Source: Rhabdochlamydiaceae bacterium (GTDB lineage: Bacteria > Chlamydiota > Chlamydiia > Chlamydiales > Rhabdochlamydiaceae). Taken from it: a stretch of DNA of 64,000 nt. The notes under the pieces were generated by a model, which saw nothing but the letters and a program-made list of their open reading frames with translations, did no database searches and was not told the DNA's origin. The translations under genes were made by a program, and so were the position numbers. Shown here in pieces: positions 52,587 to 55,894 of the stretch; the first letter of the stretch is position 1; every line of letters begins with the position of its first letter. The stretch covers positions 448,001 through 512,000 of the forward strand of contig JAJREF010000001.1 in the NCBI GenBank assembly GCA_047459655.1. The letters are read 5' to 3'.

Positions 52587-54415
52587 ATGGATAAAAAGTC
52601 GGTTATTTTTGTGCTGATATTGACAGCGTGTTTTTCTGATCAATAATTATCTTTTTCCTCCTACGAGCAGCCCCCTGCACCTGCGCAAGCCCCTGCTGTT
52701 TCTGTAGCAACACCAAAGGTCTCTGCTCCGAGTGCAAATAAAAATGAGACTCTCTATGTACTAGAAAATGCCTACCAACAACTTGTTTTTTCTAATTTGG
52801 GAGGAGCCCTTTCAGAAATAAACTTAACATTAGAAAACAAAGAAAATTCAGAGAGTGTCATCAAAGAGATCAGAACGGATCGGATTCTAAAAAAATACTA
52901 TCCCCAAGATGACAAGTTTCCTCTGCAAGCCTACCAGATGGGAGATGGAAAGAACCTGAACCCCAAAGTCGGAGGTTACTACCCCTTCTACGTCGAGGGA
53001 TTGCTCCCATTTATATGGCCTTGCAATCACATCAGATACTCAGGGAGATTCTTCACCTACTTTCCAAATGACAAGGATGGAAAAAAATCTCATTGCTTTT
53101 GAAGGAACCGTGAACCGCTGCCGTGTAACAAAAACTTTTTCATTTCCTGAAAATGCAGCGGAAGCGCCCTACTGCTTTGATGTCACCATCACATTGGATG
53201 GAGATGCGCAAGGGTTATCCTTAGGAACAGGCATTCCTGAAGTAGAGATCGTTTCTAATAGCGCTAATCCCTCTTTAAAATACCGAGAAACAAAAAACAG
53301 AAAGGCTTCTGTCGAGCAGATCTCTCTTCCTAAAACAAGCACATCTTTCGATGCTGTTCAACCTGATTGGATCTGTAACTCGAATGGTTTTTTGGGTGTG
53401 ATCCTCGACCCTTTAACAGATAGTGGATCAGGATTTTCTGCGGCTCAAATCCCAGGCCCCCTTGCACCTACACGCCTTGGTGTGATCGACCGTCAATACG
53501 ACCTCTATCCTCTAGACAAATACCCTGGGTACTCGATGAGACTGCCTCTCGGCAAAGCCTCTCAAACAATGAAGTTTCGCGTATATGCAGGCCCTTTTGC
53601 AAGTGAAGTATTGAAACAAGTCGATAAAACTTATTCCAATAAAGAAGACCGCTACAATCCTAACTACACAGCTTGCATTAGCTTCCATGGATGGTTCTCT
53701 TTTATCTCTGAGCCTTTTGCTAAATTTCTCTTCTTCCTTATGGAAATTTTCCACTTTGTTACAAGGTCATGGGGCTTTTTCTATTATTTTACTCACAGCT
53801 GCATTACGAGTCATGCTCTACCCTTTGAATGCTTGGTCGATTAAGTCGACAAGTAAAATGCAAAAAATGGCTCCTAAAGTCGCACAAATTCAAGAAAAAT
53901 ATAAGAAAGATCCCAAACGCGCCCAGCTGGAGACCATGACTCTTTACAAACAACATGGCGTTAACCCTCTAGGTGGCTGCTTCCCTCTACTCATTCAAAT
54001 GCCGTTCTTGATTGGAATGTTTGACCTTCTTAAATCGACCTTCGAGTTAAGAGGCGCTAGCTTTATCCCCGGATGGATTGATAACCTGACAGCGCCCGAC
54101 ATCGTGTTCAGCTGGGGTTACCCTATTTGGTTTTTTGGAACTTCACTCCATCTGCTACCGATTCTTTTAGGTGTGATCATGTACTTTCAACAACAGATGA
54201 CAGCAAATTTGCCCAAAGATCCGAAGCAATGGACCGACCAACAAAGGCAACAGCGTTTTATGGGAAATATGATGGTGCTTGTCTTCGGCGTACTCTTCTA
54301 CCACTTCCCCTCAGGATTAAATATTTACTGGCTCTTTTCTATGCTTTTTGGAATGCTCCAACAATGGTGGACAGCAAATAAGTTGAAAACGGTGGCTACC
54401 GACCTTCGTAAGTAG
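52587..54415 (+). CDS. yidC: Membrane protein insertase YidC (frameshifted)
   Basis: [54 protein letters not shown] and FPSGLNIYW. Confidence 0.95.
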
Positions 54416-54583
54416 ACTTTTTTCGAAACTAAGGGTTCCTCGATTTTCGGGATTATTTTGGCTGATTTCGATTTAAATTGCGGGGGTAATATCAACCTGC
54501 GTATATTACCCCTGCAATTTAAATCGAAAATCAGCTCAAAAGAACCTGAAAATCGACAGAATCTTAGTTTCGAAAGAGGTCCA
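54413..54583. repeat. Palindromic RPE-like element, family C (~171 bp)
   Basis: Near-continuous ~80-bp inverted arms TAGACTTTTTTCGAAACTAAG...CTTAGTTTCGAAAGAGGTCCA. Core TTCGATTTAAATTGCGGGGGTAATAT / ATATTACCCCTGCAATTTAAATCGAA. Confidence 0.9.
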
Positions 54584-55894
54584 ATGAAAATATGGGAAGA
54601 TTTTGTTAATGCGCAAAGAAATGAACTGGGAGAGGAAGCCGTTGCAAAATGGCTAACCTCTCTCAAAGTGATGCATTTCGATGCTCGGAACCTTTACCTA
54701 GAAGCACAAGATCCGTTTGCGATCCATTGGTTTGAGCAACATGTGCGACCCAAGGTCCGCAAATGCCTCGTAAACAATAATAACTCTCCTATCAAAGTTC
54801 ATCTAGCACTTTCAGAACCCCTTGCTCCACCCAAGCTACAAAAAAAAATTTGGAAACCTATTCTCAATCTTTCGCCAGATGGTCTGGACGCGCATGCGAC
54901 TTTTGAACTTTTTGTACCTGGAAAAGAAAATGATCTGACAGTGCAGCTTTTTTGTTCTATTTTAGATAAGCAAGAAAACTTTAACCCTATTTTTATCTCA
55001 GGGCCTGCTTCATCAGGGAAAACCCATTTATTGATGGCAGCTGCCCATTATCTCCAAGCAAAAGGAATTTCTTCCTTTTATGTGCGCGCAGAAACTTTCA
55101 CTGAACACCTCATTGCAGCCATACGCAATGGAGCTACCCGCCTATTTAGAGACCTCTATCGCAATCATGATGTTTTAATCATCGATGATGTAGATACAAT
55201 TGCTGGAAGATCTGCTACGCAGGAAGAATTTTTTCATATGTTCAATGCTCTGCACGCTTCGGGTAAACAGATGATCTTTGCAGCGCACGCAATACCGAGT
55301 GCTTTTTCTAACATCGAGCCCAGGCTAACAAGTCGTTTTGAGTGGGGAATTGTTCTCTCTCTTCAAAAACTTGACCCATCTGAGTTCAAAAATCTTCTCC
55401 TTAAACGTCTTCAAGTGCTTTCATTTCCCTTATCTGAGGAAACAATCTGCTTTCTCTTATCCCAGTTTGGGCATGCTCCTTTATCTCTTGTGAGAGCTCT
55501 TGAATCGCTCATCTTATCAAGCCATTTACAAAAGACATCTTCCTCTGATGATCACTCCCCAAAAAGCAGAAGGCATCTTAGAAAAGCTCATCTTAGAAGA
55601 AAAAAAAATTCTCTTAACACCTGAAAAAATCATCCGCTCTGTCTGTGAAGTGTGTGGAACAACCTCTCAAGATATTTTAGGAAAATCTCAAAGGCAAGAA
55701 TATGTCCTTCCAAGACAACTAGCGATCTATTTATGTCGGACCCATCTTAAAATGCCTTTTGAAAAAATCGGGAACACATTTTCAAGAGATCACTCGACGA
55801 TCATGACAAGTGTAAAAATGATCCAAAAAAGATAGATGAACAGAACAAGGAGATCTCTTCACTCTTGACAGAGATCTCCCAAACAATGAATTAG
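54584..55894 (+). CDS. dnaA: Chromosomal replication initiator DnaA (frameshifted)
   Basis: FNPIFISGPASSGKTHLL, IIDDV, ATQEEFFH, RLTSRFEWG and domain IV PRQLAIYL...RDHSTIM. Confidence 0.95.

What the first reader, a model, noticed from the sequence alone, without database searches (positions are those of the whole stretch)
54413..54586. Rickettsia-palindromic-element-like hairpin fills the yidC-dnaA gap, overlapping the yidC stop and the dnaA RBS
Seen: the ~171-bp element starts with the yidC TAG and ends one base before the dnaA ATG. Its ~80-bp arms are complementary around a ~10-nt loop. The only SD-like sequence (GAGG in GAAAGAGGTCCAATG) lies in the right arm, paired with the yidC stop region. 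The element is also open in the dnaA frame from 54458. Its ends (TAGAC..TTTCGAAACT / AGTTTCGAAAGAGGTC) recall Rickettsia RPE-1 from memory. Inference: dnaA translation may be gated by ribosomes terminating on yidC or by RNase III cleavage, so a selfish palindrome would be rewiring control of a replication initiator. It also hints at element sharing among intracellular bacteria.
Basis: partly seen in the sequence, partly recalled or inferred. Interest (0 to 1): 0.72.

Follow-up and report, generated by a model that had tools for sequence, protein, structure and literature searches.

The report
Mini-transposon hairpin splitting yidC-dnaA overlap
A 169-base hairpin-shaped repeat sits exactly where the yidC stop and the start of one of two dnaA genes overlap in close relatives of this environmental chlamydia; it is likely a mini-transposon moved by an IS5-family transposase, and its ends supply the stop codon and a predicted ribosome-binding site, so the insertion is probably tolerated rather than a purpose-built switch.

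Summary
Observation confirmed; interpretation partly. The hairpin (54414-54582, 169 bp) is one copy of a dispersed repeat family in a Chlamydiota genome. Family copies carry a 3-bp ANT target duplication (100 of 120). Their ends match 915-974-bp IS5-family elements in relatives (15/16 nt; transposase 50% identical to IS702's over 130 residues). Eight close relatives have overlapping yidC/dnaA with no insert, and one contig shows the empty site ...AAA TGA at the same codon. Duplicating AAT there rebuilds the stop (T+AG) and leaves GAGGT three bases before ATG. A different subfamily landed at the same junction in another genus (2 of 132 junctions).

It is not RPE-1: the RPE1 model and the interior fail. 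RPE1-family copies from an unnamed alphaproteobacterium do share the ends and the ANT duplication, which points to a likely shared transposase group; Rickettsia itself was not reached. One ~130-bp core also carries five different end types.

Folding supports opening of the SD by a ribosome stopping on yidC (14.4 to ~4 kcal/mol), but there are no RNA data. The gene is one of two DnaA paralogues. The scan noted the same stop/SD pattern before on other DNA (oppD-oppF).

The parts
53687..54415 (+). 3' part of yidC. The gene is split by assembly frameshifts; it ends ...DLRK* at TAG, whose T is from the target duplication and AG from the element.
   Evidence: (PRK01001 E 2.8e-116)
54411..54413 (+). 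Left copy of the 3-bp ANT target duplication (AGT; likely AAT originally, a silent AAA to AAG Lys change)
   Evidence: empty-site contig reads AAA TGA at the same codon; the silent change is inference
54414..54582 (.). 169-bp palindromic non-autonomous element (MITE), subfamily A
54414..54429 (+). Left terminal inverted repeat. C to T at 54418 and 54420, two of the three C's that pair with the SD G's.
54430..54566 (.). ~130-bp palindromic core with conserved internal mismatches; inner perfect arms 54466-54492/54503-54529 and a ~10-nt loop. The same core occurs with five end types in relatives.
54567..54582 (-). Right terminal inverted repeat: 15/16 identical to IS5-family element ends, 16/16 to an RPE1-family end
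54576..54580 (+). Predicted Shine-Dalgarno GAGGT supplied by the element end, 3 nt before ATG (the modal spacing in this genome)
54583..54585 (+). Right copy of the target duplication (AAT); its AT begins the dnaA ATG
54584..55835 (+). dnaA, the PRK12422-type chlamydial paralogue. One extra base near 55547 is likely an assembly error. A second dnaA lies at G000 C2:222474.

Best explanation
The hairpin is a 169-bp multi-copy palindromic repeat with terminal inverted repeats and a 3-bp ANT duplication, likely a MITE moved in trans by an IS5-family (IS702/ISL2-type) transposase, that likely inserted into the AAT of an ancestral yidC-TGA/dnaA-ATG overlap. Shown: the copies, the duplication, full IS elements with the same ends in relatives, and empty sites with the overlap. 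Follows from the sequence: duplicating AAT at xAA TGA gives T+AG, an in-frame stop at the old position, and leaves the end's GAGGT 3 nt before the old ATG, so both genes stay intact. Inferred: on the joint mRNA the SD is buried at the foot of the stem and is opened mainly by ribosomes terminating on yidC. Ancestral stop-restart coupling is thereby replaced by hairpin-opening coupling. The element is a tolerated passenger on which dnaA initiation now probably depends, not a selected new regulator.
For: 33 core loci in G000 vs 0 in the reversed genome. Exact 3-bp duplication in 100 of 120 GTDB copies. IS elements of 915-974 bp with the same ends around an HTH_Tnp_4 + DDE_Tnp_4 transposase, and a fragment 81% identical in the sister genome G002. 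G000 is nested among 8 overlap/no-insert genomes, support 99/95. The empty-site contig has a same-length yidC tail ending AAA TGA. The same exact fit occurs at 4 of 121 other copies, mnmE-endonuclease III-like (HhH-GPD), x-tadA-like, FKBP-spoU and oppD-oppF-like, and independently at yidC-dnaA in G013. Opening SD..AUG costs 14.4 kcal/mol free and 3.6-4.6 with a ribosome covering stop+9 to +18. No sigma70-like promoter lies in 54250-54650.
Against: No cognate transposase was found in G000 itself with this query (82% complete). No RNA holder was listed and there are no translation data, so co-transcription and gating are untested. The test that ends fall on native stop codons was not significant (9 of 17 vs 66 of 216, p 0.065), and TAG at offset 0 is forced by the search pattern. 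28 of the 121 copies come from one genome. One full IS copy (L145) has unequal 3-bp flanks. Folding is equilibrium-only.
Confidence: 0.72

Rival explanations
1. The insertion has been co-opted and selected as a regulator that ties DnaA supply to YidC synthesis.
For: Two independent exact-fit insertions at this junction. In both, the left arm is weakened opposite an intact SD: opening costs 14.4 and 14.6 kcal/mol vs 23-28 for four perfect-ended copies at other junctions. The two C to T changes hit 2 of 3 anti-SD C's.
Against: Present in only 2 of 132 junctions, and absent from the sister genome. 5 of the query's 8 departures from conserved columns are C>T/G>A, so ordinary decay explains much. 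The same fit occurs at unrelated gene pairs. Spacing at the junction is unconstrained.
Confidence: 0.12
2. The main effect is mRNA processing: RNase III cuts the long stem, as proposed for Neisseria NEMIS, and sets yidC and dnaA mRNA levels or releases the SD.
For: A 27-bp near-perfect stem. RNase III over cut-off in G000. Precedent in PMC2229807 passages.
Against: A cut in the upper stem would leave about 50 bp, including the SD helix, paired (inference). No RNA evidence.
Confidence: 0.15
3. The stem has little effect in vivo (an internal promoter, or co-transcriptional ribosome loading keeps the SD free), so the element is a neutral spacer plus SD.
For: The junction tolerates many unrelated inserts. 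The anti-SD arm is partly decayed.
Against: No sigma70-like site was found. -98 kcal/mol hairpin. Opening still costs 14.4 kcal/mol without a ribosome.
Confidence: 0.2
4. It is a true RPE-1 transferred from Rickettsia.
For: 16/16 terminal identity and the same ANT duplication as RPE1-family copies.
Against: No TIGR01045 match. The interior is unrelated. 169 vs 144 bp. The same ends occur on unrelated interiors in many phyla.
Confidence: 0.03
5. The open frame is used: DnaA starts at TTG 54458, or yidC read-through makes a YidC-element-DnaA fusion.
For: All 168 nt are open and in frame with both genes. 15 of 35 subfamily-A copies have an open frame vs 18% of mirrored shuffles.
Against: Homologs start at the 54584 Met. 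TTG 54458 lies inside the stem. The G013 insert has stops in that frame.
Confidence: 0.04

Closest known systems
Rickettsia palindromic element RPE-1 (NCBIfam TIGR01045)
   Same: Long single hairpin.
   Different: Unrelated interior, 169 vs 144 bp, no RPE1 peptide. In-frame insertion is rare here: 1 of 35 subfamily-A copies and 2 of 121 overall, vs nearly half reported for R. conorii RPEs (PMC10969869 passage). No Rickettsia genome was reached.
IS5-family ISL2-group insertion sequences (IS702; ISCaa2/ISCaa3 of Amoebophilus)
   Same: IS elements in chlamydial relatives have ends 14-15/16 identical to the query's, are 915-974 bp, and have two ORFs. ISCaa2/3 are 914-916 bp, two ORFs, -1 frameshift, ISL2 group (PMC3196728 passages). 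IS702 has 11/16 identical ends and a 3-bp GTT/GTT repeat.
   Different: The query has no transposase and is palindromic throughout. The ISL2 label for IS702 and the ANT preference of that group are recalled, not read.
Correia/NEMIS (Neisseria), ERIC and YPAL (enterobacteria) MITEs
   Same: Small hairpin MITEs next to genes, with proposed RNase III cleavage (NEMIS) and ribosome-induced conformational change (ERIC) (PMC2229807 passages).
   Different: That review lists TA termini for NEMIS and ERIC; here the duplication is 3-bp ANT. No sequence comparison was run. Supplying both a stop and an SD at an overlap was not found in print.
REP/REPIN with RAYT tyrosine transposase
   Same: Palindromic extragenic repeats; the query happens to read GTAG at its left edge.
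   Different: The GTAG is made by the duplication and is not conserved. The ends flank DDE transposases, not tyrosine transposases.

Membership tests
MITE (non-autonomous IS derivative) | Terminal inverted repeats | tested here: met
   13/16 between the query's ends; perfect in family copies
MITE (non-autonomous IS derivative) | Target-site duplication | tested here: met
   100 of 120 exact 3-bp; query AGT/AAT
MITE (non-autonomous IS derivative) | Dispersed copies and empty orthologous sites | tested here: met
   33 core loci in G000; empty sites in G001, G002, G011 and an X3 contig
MITE (non-autonomous IS derivative) | Autonomous element with matching ends | tested here: met
   L144, L145, L154 in relatives; fragment with a related end in G002; none found in G000
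MITE (non-autonomous IS derivative) | Mobilisation in trans shown | not testable with these tools
   needs a transposition assay
IS5 family ISL2/IS702 group (as donor of ends) | HTH_Tnp_4 + DDE_Tnp_4 transposase of IS5 family | tested here: met
   PF13613, PF13359, NF033581 (each half below the whole-protein cut-off); 50% to IS702 over 130 aa
IS5 family ISL2/IS702 group (as donor of ends) | Formal ISfinder group assignment | not testable with these tools
   by resemblance to IS702 and ISCaa2/3 only
RPE-1 | RPE1 peptide (TIGR01045) | tested here: not met
   0 families in six frames at E<=10; best in genome 12.5 bits vs cut-off 30
RPE-1 | Interior DNA homology | tested here: not met
   only 16-23 terminal nt match, E 0.63-1; separate cluster
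RPE-1 | Terminal repeat sequence and hairpin | tested here: met
   16/16 with L179
RPE-1 | Frequent in-frame insertion in genes | tested here: not met
   2 of 121 copies
RPE-1 | Direct comparison with Rickettsia genomes | not tested
   no Rickettsia handle reached
Conserved cis-regulatory RNA of dnaA | Conservation upstream of orthologs; Rfam family | tested here: not met
   2 of 132 junctions, unrelated interiors; no Rfam hit at gathering score, only sub-threshold hits led by miRNA hairpin models
REP/RAYT | Conserved GTAG foot | tested here: not met
   positions -3/-2 are A and variable

The most novel reading that the evidence does not exclude
RPE-1, these chlamydial hairpins and look-alikes in at least five other phyla form one superfamily of palindromic MITEs run by ISL2/IS702-type IS5 transposases, which would name the missing mover and target rule (ANT) of Rickettsia palindromic elements. 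Their ends work as a self-repair cassette, rebuilding a stop on one side and giving an SD plus start context on the other, so they can colonise stop/start overlaps of core genes such as yidC-dnaA repeatedly and convert restart coupling into hairpin-gated coupling. The ~130-bp core is itself a selfish module that swaps between the ends of different IS groups.
Probability: 0.4. Interest if true: 0.72.

Novelty: new variant of a known kind. Interest (0 to 1): 0.5.

Why it matters
The single locus is most likely a tolerated insertion. The family-level result matters more. A 2008 review lists the RPE target duplication as unknown (PMC2229807), and none of my searches found a transposase for RPEs. 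Matching ends, a shared ANT duplication and full IS5-family elements give a testable mover. The geometry explains how 170-bp hairpins can survive directly in front of core genes in reduced genomes, and it gives a natural test case for coupling by ribosome-driven hairpin opening. One core carrying five kinds of ends suggests that MITE interiors can change transposase partners.

Tried and rejected
Rfam: nothing at gathering score in the window; only sub-threshold hits led by miRNA hairpin models, rejected as generic hairpin matches. RPE1 model on six frames and on the genome: negative. Plasmid BLASTN with the element (one 31-nt hit, E 0.5) and with an RPE1-type copy (none). Viral contigs: 1 match to the end pattern, not followed up. 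The DDE_Tnp_4 hit in G000 (C3) has other ends (GGAACCTCTGG) and is not the cognate element. Four attempts to reach Rickettsia genomes through genus, family or order of RPE1-positive genomes gave groups of 1, 2, 2 and 10 genomes without new positives. No RNA holder was listed. The second read-laying gave no contig across the junction. The native-stop test was not significant. The constrained-tree test for G000+G013 did not finish. The raised open-frame rate in non-A copies (73 of 86) was set aside because 28 copies come from one genome. A 10-nt gap in G642 that reads like a worn right end was judged inconclusive. PMC186582 and PMC98933 are not held. PMC10732058 passages held nothing relevant.
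Full report
OBSERVATION. The yidC frame ends at TAG 54413-54415. The DnaA profile PRK12422 aligns from position 1 at ATG 54584. The gap folds as one hairpin: -98 kcal/mol, z -15.2, 0 of 200 shuffles as good. Its inner arms are 27 nt, 96% complementary and 10 nt apart. GAGGT at 54576-54580 is the best SD (-7.0 kcal/mol against the anti-SD located in this genome's 16S end) and pairs with the bases just after the stop. 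The 168 nt between stop and start are open, and in frame with both genes. Contigs from runs X2 and X4 (one study) bridge right arm and dnaA with 4 differences each. X1 and X3 contigs lack the extra bases at 53776 and 55547, so those yidC and dnaA frameshifts are likely assembly errors. The host is a 1.6-Mb, 82%-complete genome. I place it in Chlamydiota from the PRK12422 paralogue, the yidC-dnaA order (recalled as chlamydial) and the record titles of genomes holding its repeat subfamily. A second dnaA lies at C2:222474. C. trachomatis likewise has DnaA1 and DnaA2 (bioRxiv 2020.10.19.346502, passages). Which paralogue initiates replication was not established.

A REPEAT FAMILY. A profile of the interior finds 33 loci in G000 at E<=0.01 and 0 in the reversed genome. 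An end motif occurs 55 times vs 0-5 in five shuffles. Most are chlamydial, but titles also name Oscillospiraceae, Streptococcaceae, Patescibacteria, Acidobacteriota, a cyanobacterium, Saprospiraceae and an alphaproteobacterium; 28 are from one genome. With the element taken as AGAC...GTCT, 100 of 120 distinct copies have an exact 3-bp flank repeat (AAT 54, ATT 38, AGT 6, ACT 2). The pattern fixed only the inner T and A. The free middle base agrees in 109 of 120, against about 43% expected from the marginals (my count). Flanks favour Y before and R after, so the target is YANTR. The query is 54414-54582 with AGT/AAT flanks. Interiors fall into several clusters; the query joins 35 others (subfamily A). 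Their consensus stem shows two-sided changes at 34 of 70 pairs (22 sequences). Arm homogenisation in DNA can produce this as well as RNA selection.

THE LIKELY MOVER. PF13359 matched 10 of 41 genomes. Among the 28 loci, several carry the same ends around a two-ORF transposase: L144 915 bp, L145 974 bp (flanks ATT/AAT, unequal), L154 944 bp (AAT/AAT), L146 845 bp. L144 is HTH_Tnp_4 + DDE_Tnp_4 and best matches NF033581, IS5 family. Its C-terminal half is 50% identical to IS702 transposase and 76% to a Legionella plasmid IS5 element. Terminal 16 nt against the query's right end: L144 15/16, L154 14/16, Legionella 14/16, IS702 11/16 with GTT/GTT flanks. Amoebophilus ISCaa2/3 (ISL2 group, 914-916 bp, two ORFs, -1 frameshift), part of a set whose relatives occur in rickettsiae, legionellae and chlamydiae, fit the same build (PMC3196728 passages). 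The ISL2 label for IS702 is recalled. G000 gave no match to this transposase. The sister genome G002 has an 81% identical fragment at a contig end, ending in the family's other common end variant plus AAT.

THE INSERTION EVENT. G001, G002 and G011 have yidC TGA overlapping dnaA ATG. I examined 135 junction rows = 132 genomes (3 duplicates). They come from 256 matches in 260 scored genomes. 106 matches were unlisted, and 23 listed rows of family f20 were not fetched. yidC was found directly upstream in 118. Spacing ran from -38 to 308 bp, with overlaps in 17 (10 of them -4). The exact-fit element occurred in 2: G000 and G013. In a YidC+DnaA tree of 33 genomes, G000 is sister to G002 (100/94) inside a 99/95 clade whose other 8 members all overlap without an insert. 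G013 lies outside, and 0 of 200 bootstrap trees joined the two (the constrained test did not finish). The G013 insert has a different interior, closer to the other large cluster. So there were most likely two independent insertions. An X3 contig (35 differences over 562 nt of yidC, 6 over 121 nt of dnaA) skips the element and ends yidC with the same number of codons...AAC AAA TGA. Duplicating AAT there gives AAA T|AG on the left and AAT G on the right: the stop stays in place, the ATG survives, and the end's GAGGT sits 3 nt upstream. That is the modal spacing in G000 (53 at 3 nt and 50 at 4 nt among 366 ORFs with an SD, of 1210; crude starts).

IS THE FIT GENERAL? Of 234 usable ends, 76 have an incoming ORF of at least 80 codons stopping nearby; 17 stop on the T|AG made by the end and 10 one codon earlier. 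55 have an outward ORF starting within 60 nt, 11 of them at A|NTG. Four of 121 copies show both at once (L033, L075, L103, L126; gene families), against a rough 0.15% of available ANT sites in G000. Against this: TAG at offset 0 is forced by the pattern; the native-stop test gave 9 of 17 vs 66 of 216, p 0.065; copies are not independent; and the expectation comes from another genome.

RELATION TO RPE-1. The query has no RPE1 peptide in six frames, and G000 has nothing near the cut-off. In 401 genomes of the class of G041 (titled Alphaproteobacteria), one, G377, passed the TIGR01045 cut-off, with 101 matches. Of the 30 loci fetched, 19 complete copies were about 144 bp, with ends up to 16/16 identical to the query's and an exact 3-bp repeat in 16 (15 ANT). 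A profile from them matches only 16-23 terminal nt of the query. G377 also holds fragments of the same transposase with such ends. So the element works like RPE-1 and likely shares its mover, but it is not a member. Rickettsia itself was not reached, so the link to RPE-1 proper rests on the HMM-defined family.

MODULAR CORE. I examined 45 copies of the subfamily-A core (the query, plus 44 top matches from G001, G002, G006, G018, G020, G023 and G024). Ends were AGACC-type 15, GAGAC-type 10, GAACC/GAGCC-type 7, GAGGG-type 6, GAGGT/GAGGC-type 5, unresolved 2, most at about 168-170 bp once flank repeats are set aside. 12 of the 16 GAGAC/GAGGG copies have exact TNA repeats (my tally; TNA as the IS1031-group signature is recalled). 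In G000, 33 core loci split 10 GAACC, 9 GAGGT, 8 AGACC, 6 unassigned.

HOW IT LIKELY WORKS. Opening SD to AUG costs 14.4 kcal/mol in the free RNA and 3.6-4.6 when a ribosome covers the stop to +9...+18. For a -20..+13 footprint the cost falls from 22.6 to 6.7-13.6, approaching the 5.7-8.2 of the empty sites in G002 and G001. G013 behaves alike (14.6 to about 6). Four perfect-ended copies at other overlaps start at 23-28. The query differs from its subfamily at 8 of 111 conserved columns, two being C to T opposite SD G's. That is suggestive of relaxed occlusion, but post hoc and in line with C>T decay. No sigma70-like promoter lies in the region. RNase III is present, but cutting the upper stem would not unpair the SD helix (inference). 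I therefore favour ribosome-dependent opening that preserves an older coupling. All of this is prediction; no RNA holder was listed.

LITERATURE. Passages read: PMC2229807 (RPE TSD listed as '?', NEMIS/RNase III, ERIC/ribosome), PMC10969869 (RPE in-frame frequency, no 'chlamyd'), PMC3184786, PMC3733652, PMC1458961, PMC11602168 (no 'chlamyd'; supplements not opened, and they may list these repeats), PMC3196728, PMC10732058. The first third of PMC9769881 was read. Searches (listings) showed no description of this chlamydial family, of an RPE transposase, or of a MITE supplying both stop and SD. The original RPE papers were not available, so absence from print is not assured. Earlier notes of this scan describe the same stop/SD fit at oppD-oppF and a copy before rodA. 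By their listed summaries they did not name the transposase.

VERDICT. A real feature and a new variant of a known kind (palindromic MITE). At this locus it is most likely a tolerated, lineage-specific insertion. Interest 0.5, carried by the testable transposase link to RPE-type elements, the repeated self-repairing insertion and the end-swapping core.

Noticed in passing
window 53776 and 55547 (also 52981, 53008, 55824 in a relative's contig only): Single-base indels that split yidC and dnaA are absent from short-read contigs; likely assembly errors, so other split ORFs in this genome may be too.
   Followed up: partly
G000 C3:40807-41660: Two family ends 853 bp apart. The insert ends in a stretch that recalls a group II intron 3' end (recalled, untested), i.e. 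possibly an intron fragment inside a MITE copy.
   Followed up: no
G000 C1:131237, 251186, 701900, 736642; C5:191198, 286545: Several family ends lie within about 300 bp of tRNA genes; not tested against chance.
   Followed up: no
L143:929-2120 (G000 C3); window 6241-6336, 48286-48341, 58571-58739: An IS5-family element with GGAACCTCTGG ends and an in-frame stop near its 5' end. Short repeats in the window appear to carry related ends.
   Followed up: partly
window 30162-30327 and 52081-52217; 19142-19224; 32029-32089; 58763: Further palindromic repeats with other end types, and a lone AGACC-type end.
   Followed up: no
window 2635-4137 and 41958-43449: A 1.5-kb element present twice in inverted orientation, about 99-100% identical; probably an IS.
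   Followed up: no
L231 (G020), L328 (G653), L250 (G611), L277 (G644), L234 (G642): Other repeats sit in the yidC-dnaA gap of other genomes, including a GAGGT-ended palindrome just after the stop in G020. G642's 10-nt gap resembles a worn right end.
   Followed up: partly
G000 C2:41514-41547; C5:286545-286578; C1:736642-736663: Minimal 22-34-bp palindromes made of two ends only. The C2 copy closes a 1039-codon ORF with its TAG.
   Followed up: partly
window 47086-49894 and 55782-56414: Two tandem kinase-like ORFs (the second split) and, overlapping the dnaA 3' end on the other strand, a possible secretion chaperone (weak SicP hit, E 0.12).
   Followed up: no
L338 (IMGVR_UViG_3300042345_000884:612-1348): One viral contig carries a 137-bp element with the same ends.
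   Followed up: no
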